From a virus (Duplodnaviria > Caudoviricetes), in the IMG/VR virus record IMGVR_UViG_3300023220_001050, positions 1 to 37,558 of that record: a stretch of 37,558 nucleotides of DNA. One strand, 5' to 3'. Positions 11,346 through 33,560 of the stretch are shown here, one piece after another. The position numbers were made by a program, and so were the translations under genes. The stretch's first letter is position 1. Each line of letters begins with the position of its first letter. Below the pieces are notes generated by a model that worked only from the letters and a program-made list of their open reading frames with translations, did no database searches and was not told where the DNA came from.

Positions 11346-12670
11346 AGGGATATCACCTTGCCAACCACGAATTCCCCGTTCTGTCCTGGGACGATGGGTT
11401 GTGGTTGTTCTTCTTCTCTCTCCCTCTCCTGCTGTGCGCTTTCTACATCTTCTTGATCTATATCTAAGAGTTCGGCTACTTGTAATTCGAGCTGTGAGCG
11501 TAGCCCCTCACTAAGGAATGGGCTCTTGAGTAGTTCGGTCAACTTTGCTAGGCGTTCATTAGTAGCTTCCAATGAGGGCTGACCCCATTCGAACTCGACA
11601 TCCGCATCTAGGCCATTAGCCTGCAACACCCTGCCAAAGATCTTGTTCTCGATAACTTTCTCTACTTCTACCTGGATGCTTTTGATCATTCTCTCGAACG
11701 CGTCCATCTGCACAGGCGCGGTAGCCAGGTTGACCGATCTGCCCATGAGGACTTCCGGTATCTGGAATGTGAAAAACAACATCTCAAGGTCGTGGTTCAA
11801 GATGAACTCGAAACTGTTCTCGGCAAGCTTACCAAAGTTTAACGCTTCGACTTTGGTATCCGCGGAGAACACCCACTCAGTCTTCGCATTCATGAATTGT
11901 AATTTGTTACCTATTGCCTCGACGTCCTGAGCGGTAGGCATGATATCCTTGTCCAGATCGCCAACCGTCACGATGATAGGGGCGTTAGCCTTGCGCTTCA
12001 CGATGGAGTGCATGTCTTTCTCGGTCTGTAAGATGTTATCGATGATTTTGAGTGCTGGGAAGAGCATACCCCAACCGTAAGGGCTATCCCCAACCAACTT
12101 GAGTGGTAGGTGTGCTACTTCGAATGGTTTGAACTGGATGACTTTGCTTTGGACGAACGTGTTGGTATCTCCAACGAACTGGTTAAACCCCTCGATCAGT
12201 CCCTTGTTGTTCTGTTTGATGAACATGTTCGTGGCGTTGAGCACCTTGATGCCTTGAGGTACTTCTTCCTGCTTACCACCTAATTCGAGGAAACCAGTTC
12301 CCTTAATCAACGCCTCACGCAACCACTTACGACCAACACTCGAGAACTCCACATCCTCCATCCAGTTATCGATAAGCTCCTTAGCCCTCGCATCCTTAGA
12401 AACGGTAAAGAACCCAGGACCCCAAACGAAATCGACGATCTTATCAACAGCCCCTGTGACGAGACCGAAGTTTAGGTATATCCCTTCCGTGGTTTTGAAG
12501 TTGAACGGGTGTACTTCGCCGAGCTCTTCTGGGAAGCGTAGCTCGTTCTGTACTACTTCCCCCTTTAATCTGAGCTGTTCCTTAATGGAGTTTTTTGGGT
12601 CTGAGAATACGTGGAATACCGGTTTGACTACCTCTTTACTTGGTTGTCTGAACCAGTCTGTAAATGCCAT
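11342..12670 (-). CDS. Portal protein
   Basis: 442 aa between TerL and MuF; 'LREALIKGTGFLE', 'SPYGWGML', 'FQIPEVLMG'. Confidence 0.88.
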   Translation of the reverse strand: MAFTDWFRQPSKEVVKPVFHVFSDPKNSIKEQLRLKGEVVQNELRFPEELGEVHPFNFKTTEGIYLNFGLVTGAVDKIVDFVWGPGFFTVSKDARAKELIDNWMEDVEFSSVGRKWLREALIKGTGFLELGGKQEEVPQGIKVLNATNMFIKQNNKGLIEGFNQFVGDTNTFVQSKVIQFKPFEVAHLPLKLVGDSPYGWGMLFPALKIIDNILQTEKDMHSIVKRKANAPIIVTVGDLDKDIMPTAQDVEAIGNKLQFMNAKTEWVFSADTKVEALNFGKLAENSFEFILNHDLEMLFFTFQIPEVLMGRSVNLATAPVQMDAFERMIKSIQVEVEKVIENKIFGRVLQANGLDADVEFEWGQPSLEATNERLAKLTELLKSPFLSEGLRSQLELQVAELLDIDQEDVESAQQEREREEEQPQPIVPGQNGEFVVGKVISL

Positions 12671-18861: not shown

Positions 18862-19040
18862 TTTCTACAGAGTACTTTAAGTGTGTGGATCGTTACATCA
18901 TCATAGCTTGTGTGGTGGACGTCTACCTTGTTGGTAGAATCGCAGGTTTCGCATTTGTCTCCTTTGATCTTTAATACTGTGGGTCGTACGAATTCTTGCC
19001 ACCATTTTACGCATGTTCCGTCTTTTCCGAGTCTTCTCAT
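18831..19040 (-). CDS. Small HNH endonuclease
   Basis: CETC...VDVHH...LCRKCHKAQH. Confidence 0.8.
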   Translation of the reverse strand: MRRLGKDGTCVKWWQEFVRPTVLKIKGDKCETCDSTNKVDVHHTSYDDVTIHTLKVLCRKCHKAQHKKP

Positions 19041-19051
19041 TTTATGTTTAA

Positions 19052-19079
19052 ATTACGTTAAATGTTGGTTAAACGCACT
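19052..19079 (-). repeat. dif-like site R1 (11-6-11)
   Basis: Minus strand AGTGCGTTTAA CCAACA TTTAACGTAAT; contains the MTase stop codon. Confidence 0.7.
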
Positions 19080-19761
19080 CCAATAATGTTTCTTGTTTTA
19101 ATCTCTTTCTAGCTATCTCAACATAATCCTTATTTATTTCACAACCAACAAAATTATAACCTAATTGCTTACAAGCTACTAGGAAACTACCTGAACCAGC
19201 AAAAGGATCAAACACTTTATCATCTTTCTTAGCAAACTTTTTGAGCAACCAACGACCAAGAGCAACTGGTTTTTGTGTTGGGTGTACTCTTTTTTCCTTA
19301 TGTTTTGTATTACCCACTTGCCCTGGAAACCCTTGAAGAAAACCATTCCACATATATCTAAATATCTTTGTTGGTTTATCAAAAGAAGTCCAAGCAAGTT
19401 CGCAATCAGCAAAATCATTAGTGTATTTATCTTCCACCCTTTTATCCCATACTATCCAACATCTTGAACGAGGTAAATTGATACATAAATGTTCTCCGCC
19501 AAATACGATCTGGTTTTTACTAATTCTTATTATCTCATCAAAATATTTCTTGTGTAATACCTTTTGATCCCAATCTAAATTATGATTACTATAATCCTTA
19601 GTATACCATTTTCCTTTTTTTTGTGAACCTTTTTTAAGATTTAACATTTTTCCAATATTGATTCCATATGGGGGATCTGTTAGTACAAGATCAAAATAGT
19701 TATCTGGCAAGCTTTTCATAAATTTCAGGCAGTCTATATTGTATATTTTGTTCAGTTCCAT
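19069..19761 (-). CDS. DNA N4/N6-methyltransferase (beta class), orphan
   Basis: 'TDPPY', 'HPTQKP', 'DPFAGSGS'; start MELNKIY at 19761; AT-rich. Confidence 0.92.
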   Translation of the reverse strand: MELNKIYNIDCLKFMKSLPDNYFDLVLTDPPYGINIGKMLNLKKGSQKKGKWYTKDYSNHNLDWDQKVLHKKYFDEIIRISKNQIVFGGEHLCINLPRSRCWIVWDKRVEDKYTNDFADCELAWTSFDKPTKIFRYMWNGFLQGFPGQVGNTKHKEKRVHPTQKPVALGRWLLKKFAKKDDKVFDPFAGSGSFLVACKQLGYNFVGCEINKDYVEIARKRLKQETLLECV

Positions 19762-19762
19762 C

Positions 19763-19846
19763 TTAATCATATTGGCATTCTTTACATTTATCATTATCTT
19801 CTAATATAGTAAATATGTTACATATTAAACAATTCTTTGGTTCCAT
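19763..19846 (-). CDS. 27-aa CxxC...CxxC mini-protein (cassette gene)
   Basis: MEPKNCLICNIFTILEDNDKCKECQYD after GAGGTGA RBS. Confidence 0.5.
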   Translation of the reverse strand: MEPKNCLICNIFTILEDNDKCKECQYD

Positions 19847-19859
19847 TCTTTCACCTCAA

Positions 19860-19887
19860 ACTACCTACAATATTAGTTGTACGCACT
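19860..19887 (-). repeat. dif-like site R2 (11-6-11)
   Basis: Minus strand AGTGCGTACAA CTAATA TTGTAGGTAGT. Confidence 0.75.
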
Positions 19888-20001
19888 TACGTATCCTATT
19901 CTCTCTTTACTACATTTTAAATGGTCATAACGAAGATTACGAACTATTGTTCTTTTAGACTCATTTTTTCTAATTATTTTCTCACACCAACTACATTTCA
20001 T
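19873..20001 (-). CDS. 42-aa CxxC...HxxC mini-protein (cassette gene)
   Basis: MKCSWCEKII...YDHLKC...SAYN after GGAGG; stop lies in the R2 spacer. Confidence 0.55.
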   Translation of the reverse strand: MKCSWCEKIIRKNESKRTIVRNLRYDHLKCSKERIGYVSAYN

Positions 20002-20021
20002 TCTTCCCTCCTTGAGCTTAA

Positions 20022-20049
20022 GGTACGTGCAACATTCATTGTGCGCACT
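20022..20049 (-). repeat. dif-like site R3 (11-6-11)
   Basis: Minus strand AGTGCGCACAA TGAATG TTGCACGTACC. Confidence 0.75.
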
Positions 20050-20050
20050 T

Positions 20051-20290
20051 TTACTTTAATAATCTTCTAAAACATTTTTTATAAGATGGAAGATCGAAAT
20101 CTCCACAAAAATCTTTTTCCCTTAGAAACAATTCTCTAATATCAAAGATATGATATGTTGGTGGATGTATTCCTAAAAAACAAAAAAGTTTTCTTTTCCA
20201 ATGCCAGGGAGGTTGGTAAAATTTTGAATTCTTCCAACTTCCATCATATATTGCTTCCCATCCCAAAATTTCATGTGGTAATTTTTTCAT
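20051..20290 (-). CDS. Hypothetical protein (cassette gene)
   Basis: 79 aa, 'KLFCFLGIH'; GGAGAGG RBS; stop 1 nt before R3. Confidence 0.65.
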   Translation of the reverse strand: MKKLPHEILGWEAIYDGSWKNSKFYQPPWHWKRKLFCFLGIHPPTYHIFDIRELFLREKDFCGDFDLPSYKKCFRRLLK

Positions 20291-20316
20291 TTTTATCCTC
20301 TCCAGTTTAGTCTTAA

Positions 20317-20344
20317 AGTTCGTACAGTTCTTATTATACGCACT
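20317..20344 (-). repeat. dif-like site R4 (11-6-11)
   Basis: Minus strand AGTGCGTATAA TAAGAA CTGTACGAACT. Confidence 0.75.
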
Positions 20345-20507
20345 TCTCTTGTGCTTCTTTTAAAGTTAGCATATCATTATAGAGTATTATTCTCCAAGAA
20401 CAACCATCCTTACACTCTGACAATTGTGTTGATACTTCTTTATTTGATGTGAATGTTCCTGTATTTCCACATATTGTACATGCTGCAAAACCTAATTTTT
20501 CTTTCAT
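20334..20507 (-). CDS. 57-aa Cys-rich protein (cassette gene)
   Basis: MKEKLGFAACTICGNTG...ECKDGCSW...QEKCV; stop is the TAA of the R4 arm. Confidence 0.55.
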   Translation of the reverse strand: MKEKLGFAACTICGNTGTFTSNKEVSTQLSECKDGCSWRIILYNDMLTLKEAQEKCV

Positions 20508-20509
20508 TT

Positions 20510-20677
20510 TTATTCGCAGTAGAATAGTGTGGCGCTGTACATCATGACGTAGCCTGCGGGGGTGGGTAGTGGTGTGTGGTGGGTTTGAGTGAATTTGACG
20601 TTGTGGTCTGCGCCGAAAGAATTTATTGCTGCGTCGAACTCATCTCGTGTGTTTTCAGTTATGGTTTTTACTTTCAT
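20510..20677 (-). CDS. Hypothetical 55-aa protein
   Basis: MKVKTITENTRDEFDAAINSF...MYSATLFYCE after GGAGG; first gene of the leftward unit. Confidence 0.6.
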   Translation of the reverse strand: MKVKTITENTRDEFDAAINSFGADHNVKFTQTHHTPLPTPAGYVMMYSATLFYCE

Positions 20678-20917: not shown

Positions 20918-21031
20918 ATGGTAAAAACAATAGCGATAAGTGATGAACTATGGAAAAAACTCAAAATAAAAGCAGCACACCAAGAAAAAACTATCAGAGA
21001 AATAGTGGAAGAAAAATGCCAAAACACGTAA
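20918..21031 (+). CDS. Ribbon-helix-helix DNA-binding protein, 37 aa (not in ORF track)
   Basis: MVKTIAISDELWKKLKIKAAHQEKTIREIVEEKCQNT, a typical RHH pattern; leaderless start 24 nt after the TATA box. Confidence 0.75.
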   Translation: MVKTIAISDELWKKLKIKAAHQEKTIREIVEEKCQNT

Positions 21032-21720: not shown

Positions 21721-21981
21721 ATGAAAGAATTACCAGTAGTACAAAAAGAAGAGGAGGCTAGACCTTCTAATGTAGACATAATGGCGCAGACGCTCGCCGG
21801 CAGGTGCGAGACCGCGCTACCAGAAACCTCGTTCGACTACGCCAGACCGACGGACGACGGCGGGTCATACTGTTGGCTGAGCAGGCAGTACGATTTCGAA
21901 TGCAGATACCTTTCACCAGAACAGACAGAGGTCAGTTTCAATGATGGTATGAGTGGTATGTATAACCGATGCGAAAAGTAA
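21721..21981 (+). CDS. Hypothetical 4-Cys protein
   Basis: 86 aa, GAGGAG RBS. Confidence 0.6.
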   Translation: MKELPVVQKEEEARPSNVDIMAQTLAGRCETALPETSFDYARPTDDGGSYCWLSRQYDFECRYLSPEQTEVSFNDGMSGMYNRCEK

Positions 21982-22643
21982 GGCGGGCAGCCTTAGGTCT
22001 TACACTGGTGGTGGGTGCCGCTTTCAACACGCATTGCACAGTCCGCCCTAAAATCGAGTGGGAGAATCAGGAGATGGCTATAGCAGAAGGAAGAATACTC
22101 GTTGACGCGAGGTTTGAAGGAGAGAGTATTAGTTTGGATGCCGTGATGTCCGACTTGGCGCAGGTTCCTAGTTACGTGGTGGCTGTGGGTAACCGTCGTA
22201 GCAGAGTGGTGGTTTTCAGCGGCGAGGTGACTGATCAGCCCGAGGCGGCTCATCTTAAGGGGCAGTATCACCTGACGGCCGGCTTGTACGATAAGGTTTC
22301 GGGGCTTTACCTTAGGGATGAGCGGATGGCTTTTATTCATTTGACGCATAATGGTGGTAGTCCTTCGACCCCTTTGCATGAGTATGGTCACTTGATCGAT
22401 CATGCTTTGGATTACCCTAGTGAGGATGCGGATTTCGTGGGGCTTTGGGAGGTTTCGAGGCGTAAGACTTTTTTGAGGATGCAGATAATGCGTGAGCACG
22501 CCGCTCGCGATAGTGGTGAGTTCTTTGCTGATTGTTTTTCTGCTTATTATCTTTCTCAGACTTCGGAGTGGGCTCTTAAGAGGGATTTCGAGGAGGCTCA
22601 CAAGTACATGGAGAAGTTCGATGAGGAGATGAGCGACAGGTGA
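21969..22643 (+). CDS. Exported HEXXH zinc metallopeptidase (anthrax lethal factor/Pro-Pro endopeptidase-like domain)
   Basis: Basic plus hydrophobic N-terminus ending in Cys; 'LHEYGHLID' and 'GEFFADCFSAYY'. Confidence 0.75.
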   Translation: MRKVRRAALGLTLVVGAAFNTHCTVRPKIEWENQEMAIAEGRILVDARFEGESISLDAVMSDLAQVPSYVVAVGNRRSRVVVFSGEVTDQPEAAHLKGQYHLTAGLYDKVSGLYLRDERMAFIHLTHNGGSPSTPLHEYGHLIDHALDYPSEDADFVGLWEVSRRKTFLRMQIMREHAARDSGEFFADCFSAYYLSQTSEWALKRDFEEAHKYMEKFDEEMSDR

Positions 22644-23869: not shown

Positions 23870-24112
23870 ATGATTCCGCCGCTTGAGAAGTGTTTGGTAG
23901 AAGGTTTGAGTTACCGCAGGGCGCGGCTTGAGAGTAGTGGTTTGGAGGATACTGGTTATATCAAGAAGAGGGATGTGCACGTCTTCACGGGGCTGCGTAT
24001 GCGTGTGGAGGCTAGGTGCGTTGATGAGCGTAGGCAGCTGTACCACGTTGTTGATATTACTTATTTTAGGCCTGTGCTACGATTACTTGAGGGTGGAAAG
24101 GGAACCGATTAA
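23870..24112 (+). CDS. Hypothetical protein
   Basis: 80 aa, last gene of the plus-strand island. Confidence 0.5.
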   Translation: MIPPLEKCLVEGLSYRRARLESSGLEDTGYIKKRDVHVFTGLRMRVEARCVDERRQLYHVVDITYFRPVLRLLEGGKGTD

Positions 24113-24709
24113 TTCTAAAATCTTTAATTGTTCTTTTTCTTTTTTCATGGCCAGTTTATGTATGATGTTATGGCAAGAATAACAAATAATTATTAGATTC
24201 TTTTCATTATTGATTGATCTATCGCCATTTATATGATGAACTATTAATTTATTTTTTTGATTTTCTTCGCAGATTTCGCATTTGTTTTCTCTTATGGCAA
24301 ATATCGCTTTTCTATAAACCCATCTCCCATCAATATATCTTGGATTGTTTTTCCCTTTTGTATCAACTCTTATTATAGTTTCGATTGATCTTCTGATATT
24401 ATCAGGGTGGTTTGCTTTACATTTATTAGAACAGAATTTTCTTCTTCTTGCTTGCCATTTTTGAATGTATATTTCTTTTTTGCAAGTAAGGCACTTTTTC
24501 CATATACCTGTCTTTGGCTTTTTAGCGTGAACTATATTGTTGTTGTTTATTGCTGCGCATTTTTTACTGCAATATTTTCTTTTTGCTGATTTGTATGCTG
24601 TGAATCCTTTTTTGCAATATCTGCAATTATGATTTGTTTGTGGTAAGGAAACCATTCTGGTGTTGGTTTTATTCTGAATCCGTGTTGTTTTAGTTTGTTT
24701 TTCCACCAT
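24083..24709 (-). CDS. HNH endonuclease with Zn-finger repeats (homing-type)
   Basis: Two CxxC..F/I....KY/FCSxxC repeats, 'GKNNPRYIDG', 'CEIC...VHHINGDRSINNEKNLIIICYSCHNIIH'; AT-rich. Confidence 0.85.
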   Translation of the reverse strand: MVEKQTKTTRIQNKTNTRMVSLPQTNHNCRYCKKGFTAYKSAKRKYCSKKCAAINNNNIVHAKKPKTGIWKKCLTCKKEIYIQKWQARRRKFCSNKCKANHPDNIRRSIETIIRVDTKGKNNPRYIDGRWVYRKAIFAIRENKCEICEENQKNKLIVHHINGDRSINNEKNLIIICYSCHNIIHKLAMKKEKEQLKILELIGSLSTLK

Positions 24710-25857
24710 TCTTCTTCTTCACATATGAGATGTGTGGGGTCTTTATAAAGGTTAGGGTCACCAACGAACGGGATCGAGAATAGGAACTGTATTGATATGT
24801 TTTTGATATTGATCAATGCTTTGTCCAAGTCCTCGTAACGTAGGTGCTCAAGCAAGTCATAGCAAATTACTAGGTCTTGTGGGTCTTCATCGAGTTCCAG
24901 GATATCCCCCACATGGATATTTGTTTTATATGGATTACGTTTAACTATCCAATCGTCCTTATCAATTCCCTTTGCGCGGATACCTATCTGGCTGGCCGCG
25001 TATACACGTTGGCCGGCACCGCAGCCCAAAAACAGAGCATTCTTCGGGTTGAACAACTTCTTCATAGCTATGACGTCCTGGTAGTGTTTGGCCTCAAGAG
25101 CCATTCGGGTGTGGAAATATTGCCGACTCCTAAGGTTCTCCAAGTGGAACTTTTTCAAGATGACGCCTGGTAGGTCTGCCGGGTTTATTTGCTGTGTTGG
25201 GTATCCTCCCATGACGTGAGCGTCCTTCCACTTCTTGAGGAAGCTCGGGGTGTGGAGCTGTTGTATCTTCATATCTCTTTCGTACTTCTCCGCTATCTTG
25301 TGCAGGTGCTTGACGTAGCCGAAGTGGAAGATCCGGACGTCTTCTATCTCTGCGAGTTTGAACTCTTTCTTGTTCTTCAGTATGGCGTGGTTAACTCCCT
25401 CGAAACAGAACAGGTCTTTGTCGTTGCGTACGAGGCGGCCGGCGTGCCAATGCTTTTTCACCATGGCGTCTTCCTCCGCTAGGTGGTTAATCAAATGGTG
25501 ACTACGTATATTATATGCATCAAAGTTATATGTCTGTAGTGTTTTCTTTAATTGGGCTGCGTTATCTGACATCACTTCATCGCCATCTAGAAACAGTACG
25601 AATTCTTGGGTGGCGAGTTCGAAAGCGTAGCTTTTCTGCTCTGTGCCGGTAGTCCAGGTCCTGGTTTCGATATTGGTTTTTGGATGGTCTGCGAGTGTTT
25701 CTTTGATGATTTCTTCTGTGCCGTCCTTACTACGTGGGTCCATGACTATGACTATCTCGTCGGCCACGTCTTTGATTGAGAGGAGGCTTTCGCGGATGTA
25801 TTCTTTCTCGTCACGAACGATGTAGGCAACGCTAAGAGTTGGTGTTTTCTTTGACAT
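24547..25857 (-). CDS. GT2 glycosyltransferase fused to a class I SAM methyltransferase domain
   Basis: 'LSVAYIVRDE', 'FLDGDE', 'HFGY'; C-terminal 'LGCGAG', 'DLLEHL', 'DPTH'. Confidence 0.85.
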   Translation of the reverse strand: MSKKTPTLSVAYIVRDEKEYIRESLLSIKDVADEIVIVMDPRSKDGTEEIIKETLADHPKTNIETRTWTTGTEQKSYAFELATQEFVLFLDGDEVMSDNAAQLKKTLQTYNFDAYNIRSHHLINHLAEEDAMVKKHWHAGRLVRNDKDLFCFEGVNHAILKNKKEFKLAEIEDVRIFHFGYVKHLHKIAEKYERDMKIQQLHTPSFLKKWKDAHVMGGYPTQQINPADLPGVILKKFHLENLRSRQYFHTRMALEAKHYQDVIAMKKLFNPKNALFLGCGAGQRVYAASQIGIRAKGIDKDDWIVKRNPYKTNIHVGDILELDEDPQDLVICYDLLEHLRYEDLDKALINIKNISIQFLFSIPFVGDPNLYKDPTHLICEEEEWWKNKLKQHGFRIKPTPEWFPYHKQIIIADIAKKDSQHTNQQKENIAVKNAQQ

Positions 25858-26023
25858 ATGCTACCACCTCCAGGTATACTCTGGCTTGGGTTCTTAATTC
25901 GAAGTAGTCCACTAACATTTCTGGCTTTATTTTACCATTGCATTCTTTTAGTATTTCTGCTTCGCTCATCCTTATCCTGGCCATTGTATTGAAATGCTGT
26001 ATTAGTTGTTGGTCCAAGCTCAT
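25832..26023 (-). CDS. Hypothetical protein
   Basis: 63 aa from MSLDQQ; in operon. Confidence 0.5.
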   Translation of the reverse strand: MSLDQQLIQHFNTMARIRMSEAEILKECNGKIKPEMLVDYFELRTQARVYLEVVAYVKENTNS

Positions 26024-26027
26024 CTTC

Positions 26028-26450
26028 TTATTTCCATTTTTGGTATGTTCTTTCGTAAGTCGTGAACGGTTTGACATTAGTAAGCGGCGTGAGCACGGTT
26101 CCTTTCTTGATCGTCACACCGCAACCAATAACGCAACCTGTCCCGATGAATACTCCGTCTTCGATGACGACATCCGCACTAACGGGTTCGTGTCCCGTGA
26201 CGTATTTGTTATGTCCTTTCTTGCTAAGCCGCGGCATGGATGTGTAGATGGTGACGTTCGGAGCGATCGTCACGCCCGACCCTATGATTATTCTTCCTTT
26301 CCCTACCGCTGTGAAGTTGATGGAGATGTGGGTGTCTTCGCCTATGAGCATCTCGGTGTAGACCTTTGAGCCGTCTCCCATGTCTCCAGCGCCAAGCGTG
26401 GTTACCTTCTTGAGGACTTTGACGTCGTGGAACTTAAACTGTTTTGACAT
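26028..26450 (-). CDS. Hexapeptide-repeat (LbH) acyltransferase
   Basis: 'IGSGVTIAPNVTI', 'VVIEDGVFIGTGCVIGCGVTI'. Confidence 0.85.
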   Translation of the reverse strand: MSKQFKFHDVKVLKKVTTLGAGDMGDGSKVYTEMLIGEDTHISINFTAVGKGRIIIGSGVTIAPNVTIYTSMPRLSKKGHNKYVTGHEPVSADVVIEDGVFIGTGCVIGCGVTIKKGTVLTPLTNVKPFTTYERTYQKWK

Positions 26451-27297
26451 TTTTGAACCTCTCTTTGAACTCGCCAAACGCCAGCCCTAGGCCGTATTCG
26501 AATTTGAATCCGGCGTTCATGAGCTTCTCGTTGTTGACCGCGTAGCTCGGCTGCACCTTGTTGCTCTGCAGGTGGTGTATCTTGACTTCGGGAACCCACT
26601 CCTGGATCCTCATAGCCAGCTTGTTAAGGGTTGTGTTTTCGTGCGCCACGTGGAATACGCCTTGCTCATCGCTATGAGTAAGGTAGTAGAGTGCTCGGGC
26701 CGTGTCGCGTACGTGGATCATGGGACGAGTGTTACGACCATCCCCGAAGATCTTTATAGGCTTGCCGAACAAGGCGTTGAACATGAACGTGTTCCCGACA
26801 GGGGCGTAACGCATGTTCTCAGTATAACCGTAATTCATACCGAAACGGCAAATTAAGTAGTTGTGGTGTTCTTCCTCTAACCATTTCTCCACCGCCCTCT
26901 TGCTCCCGCCATAAGCCGAAGCCGTCAAAGGAATGTCTTGTTCGTGGTGGATACGGCCTTTGCGGTTCCCGGCCCACACGTTACAAGTGCTTGCGAATAC
27001 GTATTTCTTGCTCTTTTTCGCTATCTCTATGGCTAATTCCCTGTTGATCCTATCTATTGACATCACGTTCAGACTGGCCGTGTTAGTGATGGCGGCTAAG
27101 TTGTATACCGCGTCGAAGCTTTCTATATCCCAATCCTGGTATGTTTCGAGACTCGCGACGATGTAGGTGTGTTTAGGGAGTGGCCTGGTTGGGAGTTTCA
27201 TATCGACCACGGTTACCGTGTGGTCCGAGGCGTGGTAGAGCTCCTGTAGGGCTCTTCCGATGTAGCCTTCTCCGCCTACGATGAGGATTTTTCCCAT
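26434..27297 (-). CDS. NAD-dependent epimerase/dehydratase (extended SDR)
   Basis: 'GGEGYIG', 'NLAA', 'YGGSK', 'RPMIHVRD'. Confidence 0.9.
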   Translation of the reverse strand: MGKILIVGGEGYIGRALQELYHASDHTVTVVDMKLPTRPLPKHTYIVASLETYQDWDIESFDAVYNLAAITNTASLNVMSIDRINRELAIEIAKKSKKYVFASTCNVWAGNRKGRIHHEQDIPLTASAYGGSKRAVEKWLEEEHHNYLICRFGMNYGYTENMRYAPVGNTFMFNALFGKPIKIFGDGRNTRPMIHVRDTARALYYLTHSDEQGVFHVAHENTTLNKLAMRIQEWVPEVKIHHLQSNKVQPSYAVNNEKLMNAGFKFEYGLGLAFGEFKERFKNVKTV

Positions 27298-28223
27298 TTG
27301 TTGTATGCCTCCATTGCTATTTCTGTGACTTCTCGGTAGGGGACGCCGCTCCAGCACGGTAGGTAGAACGAGGTGTTGTAGAGGTCTTCGCTCACGGGGA
27401 GGTAATCATTGCTGTTTAGGGTGTAGCGGATCTTTGTTTGCATCTTTTTTCTTAGTTCTCTGAAGATGAAGTTTCTTTGTTTTTTGTTGCCGCATTTGGC
27501 GTTGACGATTTGGTAGTTGGTAGCGGTTACTTTTTGGAATGTGAATGGGAGACGTGCTCGGTAGTAGTCGTTGATTTTCTTCTTTTTGGCGATGACTCGT
27601 TTGTAGTTCTTTATAGCTGCGAGGCCGATGACGGCGTTGGCTTCTTGCATGCGCCCAGCCCACCTGACTTCGTTTTTGAGGACGTCGTAGAGTTCCGGGT
27701 TGTTGGTGGTGATGACGCCTCCTTCTACTGCGGTGAACGTCTTAGCAAGGGCGAATGAATATACGGAGGCTTTGGCGAACGGGTTGGCTGGGATGCCGAA
27801 ACTGTGCGCGGCGTCTACGATGAATTCCCCTCTAGTAGCCATGGAGACGTTACCGAACGTGTCCATCACGATGTTCGCTTCGCTCTTACTTCGTAGGTCT
27901 TCGTTGTGCACCACCCACGTCTCTGGGTCGACATCTAGCCATACCGGGTCGAAGCCTTGGTGGATGACTGCTGCTTTGGTGCTGGGCCACGTGTAGTCGG
28001 GGACGCCGATGTTTTTCTTCCCGGCGAACACGTGCCTGGCCGCTAGGAGCAGTCCGGTCGTGCAGCTGTTGGTGGCTACCGCGTACCTGGTTTTAGAAAT
28101 CTTGGCGCACCGCTCTTCGAACTTCTCCACGTTCTCCGAGTTGGTCCACGGACCCGTTTCGAGTAAGTTTTTGACTTGCTCCGCCACATCCAAAGAAATC
28201 GAAGGCTTACAAAATGGAATCAT
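27276..28223 (-). CDS. DegT/DnrJ/EryC1/StrS sugar aminotransferase
   Basis: 'MIPF', 'NSCTTGL', 'DAAHSFG', 'SFALAK..TAVEGG'. Confidence 0.9.
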   Translation of the reverse strand: MIPFCKPSISLDVAEQVKNLLETGPWTNSENVEKFEERCAKISKTRYAVATNSCTTGLLLAARHVFAGKKNIGVPDYTWPSTKAAVIHQGFDPVWLDVDPETWVVHNEDLRSKSEANIVMDTFGNVSMATRGEFIVDAAHSFGIPANPFAKASVYSFALAKTFTAVEGGVITTNNPELYDVLKNEVRWAGRMQEANAVIGLAAIKNYKRVIAKKKKINDYYRARLPFTFQKVTATNYQIVNAKCGNKKQRNFIFRELRKKMQTKIRYTLNSNDYLPVSEDLYNTSFYLPCWSGVPYREVTEIAMEAYNKWEKSSS

Positions 28224-28225
28224 TT

Positions 28226-28852
28226 TTAACGTAATGTAGTCGTGTGGATTCGACATTCCCCTGCTGCGTTGTCTGTGCCTTTCCATCTGCCGCTTCTTTC
28301 GTCTTCCGTTTCGTCTTCCTCAGGGTTGCTGCACGTCTTGCAGCCCAGGCTTCTGAAGCCTTCTTGGTAGAGCGGGTTGACCGGGACGTTGTATGCGGCG
28401 AGGTAACGCCACACGTCGAGTTCGGTGAAGTCCAAGATGGGGTTGTATTTCTTGAGGCCTTGGTGGGTCTCGACGTGTTTGAAACCTTTTCTGGTCTCGC
28501 CCTCGTCTTTCCTCACTCCGGTGATGATAGTCTTCTTGTTAACCACGGCTTCTTTCATCGCTTCGACTTTGGCGTCCTGGCAGCAAAGCCCGTCTTTGGG
28601 TTGGTCGTAATTGAACTGTTCGTAATCTATACTCCATTTCTGCATGATGTCTTTCTTGAGTTGTTCTGTTTCTTCGAACTCGGTGTTGCTCATCAGGGCG
28701 AACGCTTTGATAGTCATCCTGACTCTTCTGGCGATGTCGAGGAGGACCATGCTGTCTTTCCCCCAGCTTATGGCTACGGCCGCGTTTGGGTCTTCAGCGA
28801 GTGCTTGCTTTACGAGTTCTTTTGCTTTTTCTACTTTGTCTACGAATTTCAT
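28226..28852 (-). CDS. cysH: APS/PAPS reductase family protein (CysH-like)
   Basis: 'SWGKDS', 'CCQDAKVE', 'TGVRKDE', 'NPLY..GFRSLGCKTC', 'ERSGRW', C-terminal 'ECRIH'. Confidence 0.85.
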   Translation of the reverse strand: MKFVDKVEKAKELVKQALAEDPNAAVAISWGKDSMVLLDIARRVRMTIKAFALMSNTEFEETEQLKKDIMQKWSIDYEQFNYDQPKDGLCCQDAKVEAMKEAVVNKKTIITGVRKDEGETRKGFKHVETHQGLKKYNPILDFTELDVWRYLAAYNVPVNPLYQEGFRSLGCKTCSNPEEDETEDERSGRWKGTDNAAGECRIHTTTLR

Positions 28853-28859
28853 TTCATCA

Positions 28860-30023
28860 TCACTTCCATTTAGTTTTAGGTTTTAGAACCTTTTCATTAA
28901 TATGATGCTTCCAGGGCGCCAGGTCTTTAAACATCCTCTCCACTTCTTCGAAGAAGTCATGCTTCTTCAGTCCTAGCTTCTTGAGCTTGGACGCATCCAC
29001 GTTGTAGTAATGTTTTTCTGCTTCGATGCGGGGGTTCTTTACCCTATCTATTTGGATTCCGCGAAGCCCGCTTCTCGTTGCTGCTTTCTTCACCGCCAAG
29101 GCTAACTGGTTCACGTCCCTTTGCTGCTCGCACAACTGGTTGAACACTTGGTACTCGCCCTTCTTGGGTGGGTTCTCGATGTAGAGCTCGAAGCACTTAA
29201 CGGCGTCTCTTATGTTGATGAGGCCTCTTTTCTGCGTTCCTCCCCCGTAAACGGTGAGAGGGTGTTTGACCATGGCTTGGACAACGAAACGATTCAGAAC
29301 AGTGCCGAACGCCTCATCGTAATCGAACCGGCTAAGGAGGTTTGGGTTCTTCTCGCTCTCCTCGGTCGTCACCCCGTACACGATACCTTGCATCATGTCC
29401 GTCGCTCGAAGTTTCCATATCTTGCAGGCGAACGCTGTGTGTTGGCTTTCCGAAACTTTAGCCCAATGGTAGAAACTTCCCGCTTGACGCGGAAATGGAA
29501 GCACATCCTTTCTACCTCTGAATTCTACTTCGAAAAAACCCTCAGGTATATCTATGTTTGGAGTGCCGTATTCCCCCATGGTTCCCATCTTGATGAGGTG
29601 GGCGTCTGGGCAGTGCTTTTTCATAGCCCATAGGAGTTCGAGATTGATCATGACGTTGTTACGAGTGGTGTATACCGCGTTGTCGGCGGAAGCCATACTG
29701 TAAGGAGCTGAGGGTATCTGTGCGAGGTTTATGATGACGTCTGGTTTGTGTTCTTGTAGGATGCGGTTGAGGATTCTTGGTTTGGATAAGTCGAAGTGTA
29801 GGTATTTGATGTTGCTACGCATGAAAGTATTTTCATATGCGAAAATACGTGCTTCCATTGGGAGGATTGGTGTGAGGCTGTCGCTTTCCCATTCCGCCAC
29901 GAGCCTGCGCCTGGTCCCGTCGTCTACTCCGATGATGAGGCCGTCGTTGCGGACGCCTAGGTGCATGGCGAGGTTCCAGCCGATGTAGCCATCGACTCCT
30001 AGGATCAGTATCTTCTTATTCAT
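28860..30023 (-). CDS. sqdB: UDP-sulfoquinovose synthase (SqdB/SQD1/Agl3 family)
   Basis: 'GVDGYIG', 'PSAPYSM', 'KMGTMGEYGTPNIDIPEG', 'SFYHWAK', 'QGIVYG', 'RFDYDEAFGTVLNRF', 'NPRIEAEKHYY'. Confidence 0.92.
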   Translation of the reverse strand: MNKKILILGVDGYIGWNLAMHLGVRNDGLIIGVDDGTRRRLVAEWESDSLTPILPMEARIFAYENTFMRSNIKYLHFDLSKPRILNRILQEHKPDVIINLAQIPSAPYSMASADNAVYTTRNNVMINLELLWAMKKHCPDAHLIKMGTMGEYGTPNIDIPEGFFEVEFRGRKDVLPFPRQAGSFYHWAKVSESQHTAFACKIWKLRATDMMQGIVYGVTTEESEKNPNLLSRFDYDEAFGTVLNRFVVQAMVKHPLTVYGGGTQKRGLINIRDAVKCFELYIENPPKKGEYQVFNQLCEQQRDVNQLALAVKKAATRSGLRGIQIDRVKNPRIEAEKHYYNVDASKLKKLGLKKHDFFEEVERMFKDLAPWKHHINEKVLKPKTKWK

Positions 30024-31095
30024 TTATTTCCTCTAGTGCTTTGGTGAGTTTCTGGGCGGCTTTCCTCCAGGTGTATTCTTCTGCTTTCTCCCTAGCTTTG
30101 AGGGCTTTAGCGGCTACTTCTTCTCTGTTTTCGAACGCTCGGCGCATAGCTTTACGTAGCTCGGCGTTGTTTGGCGTGGCCCATTTGATCCCTTCGTATG
30201 CTAGTTCGTTTTTGACTTCTTCTAATTTGTATGGGATGAGCCAACCGTTCTCTTCGTTTACGAAGTCTGTTTGGCCTCCGAAGTCGGTTGCGATGACTGG
30301 CAGGCCGCAACTCATAGCCTCCAAGCAAGGCAGGTTGAAAGCCTCAGCTTTGGTAGGGGAGACGAACACGTCACCTCGGTAGAACGATGGCATCTTCTTA
30401 TAGTCCACGTTGTCCAGGGAGATATGGATCTTTGGCCGGTCTTCAGGAAGTTTGAGTTTGTTCATTTCCACTTGGAGGTTCCATCCAGGGGGGCAGTAAG
30501 CGGGGTTGATCTTGACTCGGAGCTGGACTGTTTCGTCTTTCCCGAATTCTTCCGCGAAGGCCTTGAATAGGTATTGTATCCCTCCTCGGTCGTGGATGCC
30601 TTTGGCCCAGCCTTTGTTGGCTACGAACGTGAATGGCTGTCCTTCTTTCTTTTCTTGTACTTTGAACAGGGCTGTGTCGACACCGTGAGGCACGACCACT
30701 ATCTTAAGATCTTTATCTAATGCATGAATAGCTCGTTTGGTGTGTTCACTAGGAGCCACGACCAAGTCAGCTTTATTGAGATGAGGAAGGAAATGTTTAG
30801 GTATCGTGTCGCCTTCCCACACGCAACACCCAACGAACTTCTTGTGTGGTTCGACCATGCCTGCTGGCCACCAATGCGGTTGCGCTATCATGAAGGTGAC
30901 GCCATATGGGTAACGTGTTTTCGTGATAGCGGCAAACTCCGCGTCGTTAGCTAAAGCTTCGAAGCCGGGCTGTACCGGGATGTCAAGATAGATGTCGCTG
31001 TTGTTCTCCCATAGAGCGTTGAAGAGTGATCTGCTATGCCTCCCGTAGCCGCTATGGCCGAAGAAGTCCGTTCCTACTAAGTTTATCTCTACCAT
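30016..31095 (-). CDS. GT4 (GT-B) glycosyltransferase
   Basis: 'SGYG', 'VVPHGVD', 'EAFNLPCLEAMSCGLPVI'. Confidence 0.9.
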   Translation of the reverse strand: MVEINLVGTDFFGHSGYGRHSRSLFNALWENNSDIYLDIPVQPGFEALANDAEFAAITKTRYPYGVTFMIAQPHWWPAGMVEPHKKFVGCCVWEGDTIPKHFLPHLNKADLVVAPSEHTKRAIHALDKDLKIVVVPHGVDTALFKVQEKKEGQPFTFVANKGWAKGIHDRGGIQYLFKAFAEEFGKDETVQLRVKINPAYCPPGWNLQVEMNKLKLPEDRPKIHISLDNVDYKKMPSFYRGDVFVSPTKAEAFNLPCLEAMSCGLPVIATDFGGQTDFVNEENGWLIPYKLEEVKNELAYEGIKWATPNNAELRKAMRRAFENREEVAAKALKAREKAEEYTWRKAAQKLTKALEEINE

Positions 31096-32013
31096 TTACA
31101 TCTCCTTGCTGTATATGCAATTAGTCTCTTTTTCCAAGCCATCAAGTTTTCCTTCATCGCCTATGCCGAGCTTCTTATTGTAATCCTGGATGAAGTCACC
31201 GACTTCTTTGTATTTCTCTTTCACCCACCTGTTGAGCGCTATCTGGTTCATCTTGCTTTGGTCACCCGCGTCGGGGTAGCTACGCTCACCACCGCTAGGA
31301 GTCCTGAAGTGGAGCGCCTCAGCCCCGGTGTGTACTCCTATTTTGAACCCTGCGAGGATGGCTCTGAATGAGAAGAATTGTTCTTCACGGAAACCGTGAC
31401 CGGTCATCCACGTCTCGTACTTGACTTTCTCACATACTCCTTTTGTCATGAGTGCTGCGCTTCTAAAATGGTGTGTTGGGATTACCTCGCTCTCGATGTA
31501 GGTGTGGCCGCAATCATCACCATTCACGACGAAACGCCCATCGCCATCAAGCACGACACGGTTGATCACGGGCTTGACGAAACGCGTCTCGCGAGGAGCA
31601 TCCGCGTTACCGAGATTAGGGGTGGTTCCAGAGACGATGTCATACCCTTCCTTCAATGCCAGAAGAAGTAATCTGAGGTAATCAACCTCGAGAACGGTAT
31701 CGTCATCTACTCGTAAAACGCACTCTCCCCTCCCGTTCGTCACCACGTGATCGGTGACGTATTGCCTAGCCCTCGCAACCCCTATGCTCTTCTCCATTCT
31801 GAGGATATCCACCCGGTGACCCTCAAGTTTGAGACGCATAACGAGTTGTTGAATGTAATTATGGCTGCCTACTGGTTGACGGCTCCCATCATCTAAGATG
31901 AACACGTCGAATAATTGGTGAGTCTGTGTGCGCAGACTCTGCAGGAGCAGGGCGAGCTCGGTGGGCCTGTCCCGCGTGCAGATAGTCACGTCTATAAAGT
32001 TATCTTTTTCCAT
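31096..32013 (-). CDS. GT2 (GT-A) glycosyltransferase
   Basis: 'ICTRDRP', 'DDGS', 'RVDDD', 'REE'. Confidence 0.88.
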   Translation of the reverse strand: MEKDNFIDVTICTRDRPTELALLLQSLRTQTHQLFDVFILDDGSRQPVGSHNYIQQLVMRLKLEGHRVDILRMEKSIGVARARQYVTDHVVTNGRGECVLRVDDDTVLEVDYLRLLLLALKEGYDIVSGTTPNLGNADAPRETRFVKPVINRVVLDGDGRFVVNGDDCGHTYIESEVIPTHHFRSAALMTKGVCEKVKYETWMTGHGFREEQFFSFRAILAGFKIGVHTGAEALHFRTPSGGERSYPDAGDQSKMNQIALNRWVKEKYKEVGDFIQDYNKKLGIGDEGKLDGLEKETNCIYSKEM

Positions 32014-32356
32014 TGATTTCCTCATAATGTTCTATATTATGACAGCTCTTACATAATGTTTCCAAATTAGAAAAATCATTATTTTTCCTATTTCTATCTT
32101 TGTGATGTAAAACTAGGAATCTATCTGAATCACATCTTTCACATGCATCTTTTTTAAATGATTTAATATCTGTAGAATACAATCCATGTTTTAGATTTAT
32201 ACCTTTATTCCATCCAGGGACATTTCTACATATCATAGAGCAGAATCTTCTTTTTCTTGGTCCTTCTTTTGTTTTAATAAGTTCATAACAAGTTTCGCAA
32301 TTAACAACACATTCAGGCCAGATCCTTCGTTTACTATTACTTTCTGCTATACTCAT
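32000..32356 (-). CDS. HNH endonuclease inserted in the glycosylation operon
   Basis: 'CERC...LHHKDRNRKNNDFSNLETLCKSCHNIEH', 'GWNKG'; AT-rich. Confidence 0.85.
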   Translation of the reverse strand: MSIAESNSKRRIWPECVVNCETCYELIKTKEGPRKRRFCSMICRNVPGWNKGINLKHGLYSTDIKSFKKDACERCDSDRFLVLHHKDRNRKNNDFSNLETLCKSCHNIEHYEEINGKR

Positions 32357-32357
32357 T

Positions 32358-33560
32358 TCATAATTCCCTCAAAAACTTTTCCCACATCGGCACAACTATC
32401 TCCCAGCTATAGTTTCTAAGAACTTTATTACGGCCCGTTTTGCCGAGGTGTTCTCTCGTCTCGGGCTCCTTGTAAAGCTTGTTAAGAGCTGCCACACATG
32501 CTTTGATGTTCATGATCGCCCTCTCAACGACCCATGAACCCGTGATCTCTGCGATGGCCGGTACGGGTAGACCGCAAACACCATCATCAAGCAATAACTC
32601 TTTCGTGGTGGTGTACTCGGTAGCTACGACCGGGATTTGGCACCCTAAGGCCTCTATTATAGGAATGCCAAAACCCTCGCCGCTCGTTGTTAGGAGAAAG
32701 ATATCCATCGCGTTATACACCTTGCACATGTCCTTGTAATCCAAGCCCTCGAAGTATCGTATATCGCTAAAGAACACCCTGTTCTGCAGGTTGTGCCTGG
32801 AGATGAGGAATCTGATGTCGAAGATGGCCGCGCCATCGAACGGGTCACAATGCATGTAAAGCACGGCTTCCGGTTTGTCTTTACAGAACTCTGCGAAAGC
32901 CTTAACGGTACGGTCAAGCATCTTACGGCCCTGATTCCTGGCTACGGTGCCGACGACGAACCGTCCTGCGAGTGCTCCTGTGACTTTCGTCCCGGCCACG
33001 GTTTTGACAGTCATGTTTTGCCGTATGAGTTCTTTCTCTTCAGGCCCGACTGGGTGGTAAAGGGCTGTGTCGATAGCGTGAGGGATGTAATGGGTGTCCA
33101 AGCCGTGCACTTCTTTGGCTTGCTTCTGGGCGAACTTGCTCATAGCGACCGCCCTCGTGACGTATTTGAGGATTTGATCGCAGCCTTGTGGTAGTCCTCC
33201 TCCTCCGTCTGAGGGGAAGTAGAAGAACGTTTTTGCTGGTGAGAAGTTGAGATCGAGAAGCCAGGGGTAAAGCATGAAGGTGTCTAGGAGTATGCCGAAG
33301 TAGTGGGGTTTGTGTTTTTGTACTCTTGCTTGGAGGACGTCTTTGTTGTATTGTTCCCGCCCGTTCCCGTAGAGCCAGAAGTCGAGTTTGGTGCCGTCCG
33401 CTAGGGTGAGTCCTGGTGGTAGTGGTTGTCCGACGTAGTTGTGGGCGTACGCTATACAATCATAATTTTTAGATAAGCCGTTGAGGACGTTGCGCGTGAT
33501 GGTACCATACCCCGTGCAGGTAAGAGGGGAATCGCTGAGCCAACATAGCTTTTTTCTCAT
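32358..33560 (-). CDS. GT4 (GT-B) glycosyltransferase
   Basis: 'SDSP..TGYG', 'VARNQGRK', 'EGFGIPIIEA'. Confidence 0.9.
   Translation of the reverse strand: MRKKLCWLSDSPLTCTGYGTITRNVLNGLSKNYDCIAYAHNYVGQPLPPGLTLADGTKLDFWLYGNGREQYNKDVLQARVQKHKPHYFGILLDTFMLYPWLLDLNFSPAKTFFYFPSDGGGGLPQGCDQILKYVTRAVAMSKFAQKQAKEVHGLDTHYIPHAIDTALYHPVGPEEKELIRQNMTVKTVAGTKVTGALAGRFVVGTVARNQGRKMLDRTVKAFAEFCKDKPEAVLYMHCDPFDGAAIFDIRFLISRHNLQNRVFFSDIRYFEGLDYKDMCKVYNAMDIFLLTTSGEGFGIPIIEALGCQIPVVATEYTTTKELLLDDGVCGLPVPAIAEITGSWVVERAIMNIKACVAALNKLYKEPETREHLGKTGRNKVLRNYSWEIVVPMWEKFLREL

What the first reader, a model, noticed from the sequence alone, without database searches (positions are those of the whole stretch)
19052..20507. 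Array of small gene cassettes delimited by four Xer/dif-like sites: a candidate integron-like capture system in an archaeal virus
Seen: four directly oriented 28-bp sites with 11-6-11 geometry and partly palindromic arms (minus strand): AGTGCGTATAA-TAAGAA-CTGTACGAACT (20317-20344), AGTGCGCACAA-TGAATG-TTGCACGTACC (20022-20049), AGTGCGTACAA-CTAATA-TTGTAGGTAGT (19860-19887) and AGTGCGTTTAA-CCAACA-TTTAACGTAAT (19052-19079). The intervals of 295, 162 and 808 bp each hold an RBS and one or two ORFs with no obvious promoter. Each stop codon falls in or 1 nt from the next site; two proteins end in 'CV*' encoded by the arm itself. The block is visibly AT-richer than the backbone. Known: the left arm is 9-10/11 identical to XerC arms (E. 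coli dif GGTGCGCATAA, ColE1 cer GGTGCGTACAA); archaea use a single XerA on near-symmetric dif sites; Acinetobacter pdif modules shuffle genes between such sites. Inference: a tyrosine recombinase (none in the window, so probably host XerA) stacks cassettes downstream of a viral promoter. All four spacers differ, which would block ordinary excision and points to an unusual mechanism or a locked array.
Basis: partly seen in the sequence, partly recalled or inferred. Interest (0 to 1): 0.92.

Follow-up and report, generated by a model that had tools for sequence, protein, structure and literature searches.

The report
Xer-site gene cassettes in archaeal viruses
An uncultured, probably archaeal virus carries a row of AT-rich small genes, each joined to the next at a 28-base dif-like palindrome, and a second related virus has the same layout, so these viruses likely borrow a host recombinase to collect genes much as integrons do.

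Summary
The four co-oriented 11-6-11 sites are real (chance 0.02). They bound a block of GC 0.29-0.31 whose compositional edges fall on site 4 and on an eroded fifth half-site at 20510-20520. Cargo: four tiny ORFs and an N6/N4 DNA methyltransferase. A terminase-related virus (L095, 36% identity) has its own array of this layout in another genome slot. One of its genes matches a site-free gene elsewhere, and the similarity stops at the first base of the arm. A pattern built from arms alone retrieves Patescibacteria sites with dif-type spacers (7 of 8), supporting a single-Xer site family. No tyrosine recombinase was found in the window or in 28 related records. All spacers differ. Best reading (0.45): a host Xer-family enzyme inserts cassettes without full spacer identity, which leaves locked junctions. 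Not shown: recombination, host, or cassette turnover between close relatives. Arrays occur in only 1 of 80 related viral loci. It fails the integron, pdif and IMEX membership tests, and seven literature searches found no description. The scan noted similar arrays before in DPANN and Bathyarchaeia DNA.

The parts
20510..20520 (-). eroded left arm (half-site 0), ACTGCGAATAA, at the stop of the 55-aa backbone gene; no spacer or right arm
   Evidence: 9/11 to the left arms, best of 49 gene ends; GC change point 20515, support 20509-20533
20334..20507 (-). cassette 1: 57-aa ORF with two Cys pairs, ends in CV* coded by the site 1 arm
   Evidence: GC3 0.19; no Pfam, PHROG or PADLOC family
20317..20344 (-). 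site 1, AGTGCGTATAA-TAAGAA-CTGTACGAACT
   Evidence: 18 of 22 arm bases shared with three Patescibacteria dif-like sites
20051..20290 (-). cassette 2: 79-aa ORF, no known family
   Evidence: GC3 0.17; two homologs at 53-55% identity; none in viral contigs
20022..20049 (-). site 2, AGTGCGCACAA-TGAATG-TTGCACGTACC
19873..20001 (-). cassette 3: 42-aa ORF (CxxC), stop inside the site 3 spacer
   Evidence: GC3 0.23; stop position
19860..19887 (-). site 3, AGTGCGTACAA-CTAATA-TTGTAGGTAGT
   Evidence: left arm 10/11 to the cer XerC arm
19763..19846 (-). cassette 4, first ORF: 27 aa with two CxxC motifs, RBS GAGGTGA
   Evidence: GC3 0.14
19069..19761 (-). cassette 4, second ORF: orphan N6/N4 DNA methyltransferase (230 aa; longest frame starts at 19794), ends in ECV* coded by the site 4 arm
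   Evidence: PF01555 E 5e-25; PADLOC MTase_II; 0 of 119 listed homologs end in ECV
19052..19079 (-). site 4, AGTGCGTTTAA-CCAACA-TTTAACGTAAT; downstream edge of the foreign block
   Evidence: GC change point 19034, support 18992-19082
20510..20677 (-). upstream backbone gene (55 aa)
   Evidence: GC3 0.54; site-free homolog at 39% in related virus locus L333
18831..19040 (-). downstream backbone gene, small HNH-like protein, ahead of the D5 primase-helicase
   Evidence: PHROG HNH E 1.5e-5; GC3 0.44

Best explanation
The block is a row of AT-rich single-gene units joined at symmetric dif-type sites, likely inserted one by one by a host-encoded, single-subunit Xer-family tyrosine recombinase that would tolerate mismatched 6-bp spacers. 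Shown: the sites, their placement at gene junctions, the foreign composition, a second viral array, and no detectable viral recombinase. Inferred steps: (1) A small viral-type gene becomes joined at its 3' end to a left arm and at its 5' end to a right arm plus ribosome-binding site. How this happens is unknown, as for integron cassettes. (2) The unit circulates as a circle closed at one site. (3) The host enzyme joins it to a site in the replicating virus with little spacer identity, so each junction gets a different spacer and sometimes a shortened one (3 nt in L095). (4) Mismatched spacers then resist excision by a homology-dependent resolvase, so the array is stable and older junctions erode. 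(5) The genes are likely read from backbone transcription. The methyltransferase likely protects the virus from host restriction.
For: Sites and composition. Second array in L095: four junctions within 570 bp, 83-96% alike in pairs, each at a stop/start junction, in a different slot (terminase-portal) with different arms. Gene-end replacement: L095 ORF 12046-12213 is 63% identical to a site-free gene in L113/L119; DNA identity is 13/15 before the arm and 3/22 from its first base. The same slot in L070-L072 holds only the 44-aa neighbour gene and no sites. Site family: an arm-only pattern returns 8 of 121 Patescibacteria genomes, 7 of 8 with spacers at least 4/6 like E. coli dif TGTATA (null 0.096 each, binomial 6e-7, related genomes not independent). 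Archaeal XerA binds both arms of an 11-6-11 dif (PMC8371274 section 20). No PF00589 match in the window or in 0 of 28 related records, 0 of 8 near-complete. Spacers pairwise 2-4/6 identical; none of the window's 28-mers recurs. A tyrosine recombinase that accepts overlap mismatches exists (IntDOT, abstract of PMC2817482).
Against: No recombination product, empty allele in a close relative or excised circle was seen. Arrays are rare: 1 of 80 terminase-related loci and 1 of 50 whole records. No window cassette was found in other DNA; 80 viral methyltransferase loci (42-50% or lower identity, from 6 of 64 parts of the collection) had no sites (8 hits vs 26 control). Simple insertion of palindromic cassette sites predicts that arms pair per cassette, and they do not (29 vs 31 within-site). 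Xer enzymes normally need near-identical spacers (PMC13141974 passages). Scored with window arms alone, L095 junctions rank 8, 29, 48 and 176 of 964 and singly do not beat the reversed control (top 20.8). The L119 gene is a distant homolog, so the true donor's end is unknown. The record is 62% complete. The host is unidentified.
Confidence: 0.45

Rival explanations
1. pdif-like exchange. Housekeeping XerA recombines only sites with matching spacers. Modules move between co-infecting viruses or plasmids by cointegrate formation at one spacer type and resolution at another. Arrays with two identical co-oriented spacers are excised, so only all-different arrays survive.
For: Needs only known Xer chemistry; documented for Acinetobacter dif modules (PMC13141974 passages). 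Explains all-different spacers and the lack of per-cassette arm pairing. One archaeal genome (G002/L044) has a site whose spacer CTAACA is one base from both site 3 and site 4.
Against: No spacer is shared among the window, L095 and L016. The 3-nt spacers in L095 are not expected from matched crossovers. The CTAACA similarity is within chance among about 64 hits. No enrichment of the motif in G002's class (42 of 201 genomes; reversed control about 70 by my count).
Confidence: 0.25
2. The repeats are not recombinase sites. They are binding sites for a dimeric regulator, or conserved junction sequences that promote homologous shuffling of small genes, like the repeated leaders seen in relatives.
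For: Related viruses have small-gene runs with repeated leaders and no palindromes (GAGGCTGAAGATG-type in L119; GGGTGCAAGAATG-type in L333). The window encodes a ribbon-helix-helix protein nearby (20918-21031, weak Pfam match).
Against: Sites sit on stop codons between co-oriented genes and at both GC edges, not at promoters. Copies are only 62-71% alike over 42 nt with a free spacer, poor for homologous recombination. The arm-only pattern pulls dif-type spacers.
Confidence: 0.12
3. The recombinase is encoded by the virus in the missing part of the record, or by a helper or satellite element, making this a self-contained viral integron-like platform.
For: CheckV completeness is 62%.
Against: The contig ends fall in the tape-measure gene and just past the head genes, so the gap probably holds tail genes (gene order; inference). 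0 of 8 near-complete relatives have PF00589, though none of those 8 is known to carry an array.
Confidence: 0.1
4. The sites are relics of IMEX-type events: successive small elements integrated at a dif site through host Xer and were trimmed.
For: IMEX use dif-like attP sites, some with partly mismatched central regions (PMC5357621 passages).
Against: Units are 160-810 bp with no replication or mobility genes, are trimmed to within bases of start and stop codons, and no spacer matches the dif-type TGTATA at more than 4/6.
Confidence: 0.08

Closest known systems
Integrons, including archaeal integrons (PMC9668308, passages) and integrase-less attC clusters in virulent phages (PMC9892861, abstract and section 3.4)
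   Same: Tandem co-oriented short ORFs with a site at each junction, stop codons inside the site, no integrase on the virus, and N6/N4 methyltransferase as cargo (also reported in phage cassettes).
   Different: No IntI and no attC: gene gaps are 26-49 nt, there is no GTTRRRY box, and no site folds better than shuffles. The sites are 28-bp dif-type palindromes.
Acinetobacter pdif / dif modules (PMC13141974, passages)
   Same: 28-bp 11-6-11 sites with variable spacers, XerC-like arms, accessory genes between sites, recombinase supplied by the host.
   Different: pdif sites have distinct XerC and XerD arms and alternate in orientation on plasmids. Here both arms are XerC-like, all sites are co-oriented, units are tiny and appear promoterless, and the carrier is a tailed virus.
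Archaeal XerA/dif (PMC2958812 passages; PMC8371274 section 20)
   Same: One recombinase type on two 11-nt inverted arms with a 6-nt spacer.
   Different: dif is single-copy on the chromosome and resolves dimers. Here four or more sites with different spacers sit in a viral cargo region.
IMEX such as CTXphi, VGJphi, TLCphi (PMC5357621, passages)
   Same: Viruses without their own integrase that carry dif-like sites.
   Different: IMEX use one attP to enter host dif. Here the sites partition cargo, and none has the dif-type spacer.

Membership tests
Integron | IntI integrase gene on the element | tested here: not met
   No PF00589 match; none among 64 ORFs; record 62% complete
Integron / CALIN | attC sites: R''-L''...L'-R' boxes that fold as a single-strand hairpin (minimum about 55 nt, recalled) | tested here: not met
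   Gaps 26-49 nt; no GTTRRRY box at any of 4 junctions, RYYYAAC only at site 4; fold z between -1.42 and +0.68 for 8 of 8 strands
Integron | Tandem co-oriented short ORFs separated by recombination sites | tested here: met
   second case L095
Integron | attI and Pc promoter at the head of the array | tested here: inconclusive
   Only an eroded half-site at the upstream end; the sigma-70 scan does not cover archaeal promoters
pdif / dif module | 28-bp site with 11-6-11 geometry and variable spacer | tested here: met
pdif / dif module | Distinct XerC and XerD arms | tested here: not met
   Right arms match the XerD arm at 3-5/11 but the cer XerC arm at 6-9/11
pdif / dif module | Alternating site orientation (C and D modules) | tested here: not met
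   All four sites have the AGTGCG arm on the same side
pdif / dif module | Crossovers between sites with matching spacers | not testable with these tools
   No close relatives or reads; no spacer pair above 4/6
Single-Xer dif-type site (XerA-like) | Two 11-nt inverted arms of one type around 6 nt | tested here: met
   Arms 7-8/11 complementary; 18/22 arm identity to Patescibacteria dif-like sites; spacer test
Single-Xer dif-type site (XerA-like) | Bound and cleaved by the host Xer | not testable with these tools
   Needs biochemistry; host unknown
IMEX | No own recombinase | tested here: met
   (record incomplete)
IMEX | One attP matching host dif, with integration at dif | tested here: inconclusive
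   Four sites, spacers 3-4/6 to TGTATA; host dif unknown; no provirus of this virus found

The most novel reading that the evidence does not exclude
Tailed archaeal viruses run a recombinase-free, integron-like gene-collecting platform. It is built on dif-type double-strand sites and worked by a host Xer-family enzyme that ignores spacer identity. Viral genes are trimmed into promoterless cassettes and stacked behind locked junctions, linking viruses to a cellular cassette pool in small archaea.
Probability: 0.35. Interest if true: 0.9.

Novelty: new variant of a known kind. Interest (0 to 1): 0.72.

Why it matters
If right, a lytic-looking archaeal virus gains counter-defence and other accessory genes through a host chromosome-maintenance-type enzyme, by a cassette route without attC or IntI. 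That would be a second, independent route to integron-like gene collecting. It also gives a short, defined substrate (28 bp) for two open questions: how gene cassettes are first made, since L095 shows a gene end replaced at the arm edge, and whether an Xer-family enzyme can recombine mismatched spacers. A homology-relaxed, one-way Xer reaction would be useful for DNA assembly.

Tried and rejected
Close relatives: the primase query found 1 distant locus; the 79-aa cassette protein found 0 viral loci; the 55-aa flank protein found only itself (a 39% homolog turned up later). No sequencing run was listed, so excision could not be tested on reads. Viral pattern scans: 1 hit inside an ORF, 0 hits, 103 loci all single-site (full flanks for 80 only), 9 loci with only L095's record clustered. 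Metagenome scan: 58 loci, 1 with a second clear site (L016). Species-genome scan: 6 loci, all single. Host search by motif: phylum of G001 (titled Thermoplasmata) 1 of 201, inside a gene; class of G002 42 of 201, not above control; phylum of G002 7 of 121, only 1 of 7 spacers dif-like; Patescibacteria single sites only, no arrays by count. Host search by terminase: 61 of 301, 13 of 301 and 1 of 251 genomes; the proviral terminases checked are only 22-35% identical, and 958 kb around them held no array (10 hits vs 18 control). No DPANN genome handle could be reached. Rejected: attC hairpins; per-cassette arm pairing; strand-specific folding; a site at L094:5659, which is inside a gene. The Atlas gave nothing for the 79-aa protein (best 0.75). 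No structure or complex prediction was run.

Full report
Setting. The window is a whole IMG/VR virus record, linear, 62% complete by CheckV. It encodes terminase, portal, HK97-type capsid, tail proteins, a D5 primase-helicase and a glycosyltransferase cluster. Among 50,697 phage records the only capsid matches are haloarchaeal viruses (4 records, 25-26%), and the best terminase match is HGTV-1 (30.5%). A terminase profile rings in 61 of 301 genomes of G002's phylum, 13 of 301 of G001's phylum and 1 of 251 Patescibacteria. G002 is archaeal despite its record title (RNA polymerase N match); calling its phylum Thermoproteota and its class Bathyarchaeia is my inference. The proviral terminases I checked are only 22-35% identical, against 40-60% for unassigned low-GC viral contigs. 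An archaeal host is likely. A DPANN host is a guess that I could not test.

Observation. The four sites are as described. The chance expectation is 0.02 matches, and leave-one-out scoring recovers each site at 18-23.5 bits. A two-change-point fit puts the AT-rich block at 19034-20515, with support intervals 18992-19082 and 20509-20533. The first interval contains site 4. All five ORFs inside have GC3 of 0.14-0.24, against 0.43-0.54 for the five flanking genes. Gene gaps at the sites are 26-49 nt, filled by the site and a ribosome-binding site. The cargo is four tiny ORFs of no known family and an orphan N6/N4 methyltransferase. None of 119 listed homologs ends in the arm-coded ECV.

Are these Xer-type sites? 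Left arms match the E. coli dif or cer XerC arm at 8-10 of 11. Right arms match the cer XerC arm at 6-9 of 11 and the XerD arm at only 3-5 of 11 (arms from Table 2 of PMC2410131, passage seen). Both arms are therefore of one type, as for archaeal XerA on an 11-6-11 dif (PMC8371274, passages and section 20; PMC2958812, passages). An independent check: a symmetric pattern that leaves the spacer free matched 8 of 121 Patescibacteria genomes, no more than its reversed control (7). But 7 of the 8 spacers are at least 4/6 like E. coli's TGTATA, against 0.096 expected each (genomes not independent). In G002's phylum only 1 of 7 was. So arms of this kind belong to the dif family. The viral spacers themselves are not dif-like (3-4/6) and differ from each other (2-4/6).

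A second virus. I kept the best 80 of 230 terminase-related viral stretches, searched 50 records whole and fetched further flanks. The window-only matrix gave 43 hits against 46 in reversed DNA. One record, L095/G421 (terminase 36% identical), has an array between terminase and portal: junctions at 11652, 11900, 12005 and 12196 with arms of the GCTTCGCATAA / TTAGACGAACT type, spacers of 6, 3, 6 and 3 nt, tiny ORFs ending in or next to the left arm, and eroded junctions on either side. It is the only cluster in 81 loci, with 0 in the control (L095 sites were by then in the model), and 562 kb more added none. Against this: with window arms alone its junctions rank 8, 29, 48 and 176 of 964 and do not singly beat the control. 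Their reality rests on mutual identity (83-96%), clustering and placement. L095's array is not clearly poorer in GC than its AT-rich backbone (0.26-0.32 vs 0.33-0.34).

Breakpoints. The L095 ORF at 12046-12213 is 63% identical to a gene in L113/L119 that has no sites. DNA identity runs 13/15 up to the arm and 3/22 from its first base; the tail EKWMGAEDGDN is replaced by arm-coded ASHNS. The last L095 ORF is 61% identical to the gene directly behind terminase in L070-L072, where no array intervenes. These are distant relatives (terminase 34-39% to L095), so they show what the genes look like outside an array, not a before-and-after pair. No window cassette was found in other DNA. The viral methyltransferase scan covered 6 of 64 parts of the collection and its 80 loci had no sites. 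Six methyltransferase homologs end in or contain SSHN, SSHS, SSHD or SSYD, which an L095-type arm would encode. This is a protein-only lead from a partly related set.

Cellular counterparts. Of 58 metagenome loci, L016 has two co-oriented sites 1193 bp apart with different spacers next to accessory genes; an Atlas lead points to Aenigmatarchaeota (score 0.84, below the 0.9 bar). L033 has one site with the exact TGTATA spacer. Earlier notes of this scan describe similar arrays in DPANN genomes beside a Xer-like recombinase, and typed spacers in Bathyarchaeia. These are unchecked AI notes. They suggested two readings that I reuse: a dedicated host enzyme, and spacer-typed exchange. I tested per-cassette arm pairing (not seen: 29 vs 31) and motif enrichment in G002's class (not seen).

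Mechanism. No tyrosine recombinase is in the window or in 28 related records (0 of 8 near-complete), so the enzyme is most likely the host's. Xer recombination normally needs identical or near-identical spacers, and pdif modules are replaced through matched pairs (PMC13141974, passages). No pair here could excise under that rule. Either the enzyme tolerates mismatch, as IntDOT does (PMC2817482, abstract), or exchange is typed and matching partners exist elsewhere. All-different spacers in two viruses, 3-nt spacers and graded erosion fit the first better (0.45 vs 0.25). Taken together, the chance that these are tyrosine-recombinase junctions around acquired genes is about 0.85 by my estimate. 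How a gene first acquires its arms is unexplained; the one mapped join is at the outer edge of the arm.

Comparison. It works like an integrase-less integron array in a phage (PMC9892861, abstract and section 3.4, which also reports methyltransferase cassettes; PMC9668308, passages), but has no attC. It uses pdif-like sites but lacks XerD arms and alternation. It is not a single-attP IMEX (PMC5357621, passages). Searches showed no description of such arrays in viruses or archaea. The library lacks most subscription papers, I opened no supplements, and bioRxiv supplements are closed, so a description could have been missed.

Verdict. A real feature that recurs in a second virus, with a strong site-family assignment and an untested mechanism. 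New variant of Xer-exploiting cargo modules; interest 0.72.

Noticed in passing
G642:C20:14058, G630:C125:48251, G665:C15:21454, G593:C34:38698, G565:C7:12908, G585:C2:71672, G624:C9:1349, G701:C1:88440: Patescibacteria genomes carry single, near-perfect palindromic 11-6-11 sites with TGTATA-like spacers that look like the dif of a single-Xer system; some overlap open frames. One literature search showed no description. G630 has a second weaker site 118 bp away.
   Followed up: partly
L095:12196-12260: After the fourth junction lies a gene-less unit of about 35 nt whose ends are complementary, so the stretch can fold into an attC-like hairpin with one bulged base; the fold is not significant (z -1.3).
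   Followed up: partly
L016:2501-3721: Archaeal (DPANN-like) chromosome fragment with two co-oriented sites of the same family and different spacers around accessory genes.
   Followed up: partly
L182, L188, L190-L192, L200, L207, L231, L252 and similar: A large group of viral contigs, many from one dataset, carries one symmetric AGTTCGTATAA-N6-TTTTACGAACT-type site each, with recurrent spacers; possibly a lox/dif-like resolution or integration site.
   Followed up: no
L119:9140-9930 and L333:2780-3640: Small-gene runs in related viruses have repeated leader motifs in front of start codons (GAGGCTGAAGATG-type, GGGTGCAAGAATG-type) instead of palindromic sites.
   Followed up: no
P0002, P0031, P0032, P0054, P0058, P0079, P0094 and others: Many close methyltransferase homologs have long, modular C-terminal tails that recur in pieces, suggesting read-through into repeated DNA elements behind the gene.
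   Followed up: no
window 24547-33560 (-): Nine-gene sugar-modification cluster: glycosyltransferases, epimerases, DegT aminotransferase, acetyltransferase, PAPS reductase-like protein. A similar cluster is in L091 and L095. Two AT-rich HNH genes (24083-24709, 32000-32356) lie at its edge and inside it, without sites.
   Followed up: no
window 21969-22643 (+): 224-aa ORF with a Pfam PF07737 (ATLF domain) match, E 3.5e-16, in the divergently transcribed early region; likely a metallopeptidase-like domain (recalled, not tested).
   Followed up: no
L044:2499-2600 / G002:C63:253: Archaeal genome (record titled Patescibacteria) with one site very like window sites 3 and 4, about 90 bp from what looks like a tRNA 3' remnant.
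   Followed up: partly
L297:7337 (G404): Best window-like score among relatives (23.4 bits) is a single site with a 3-nt spacer at a gene junction in a virus with 50% terminase identity; the control top is 20.8.
   Followed up: partly
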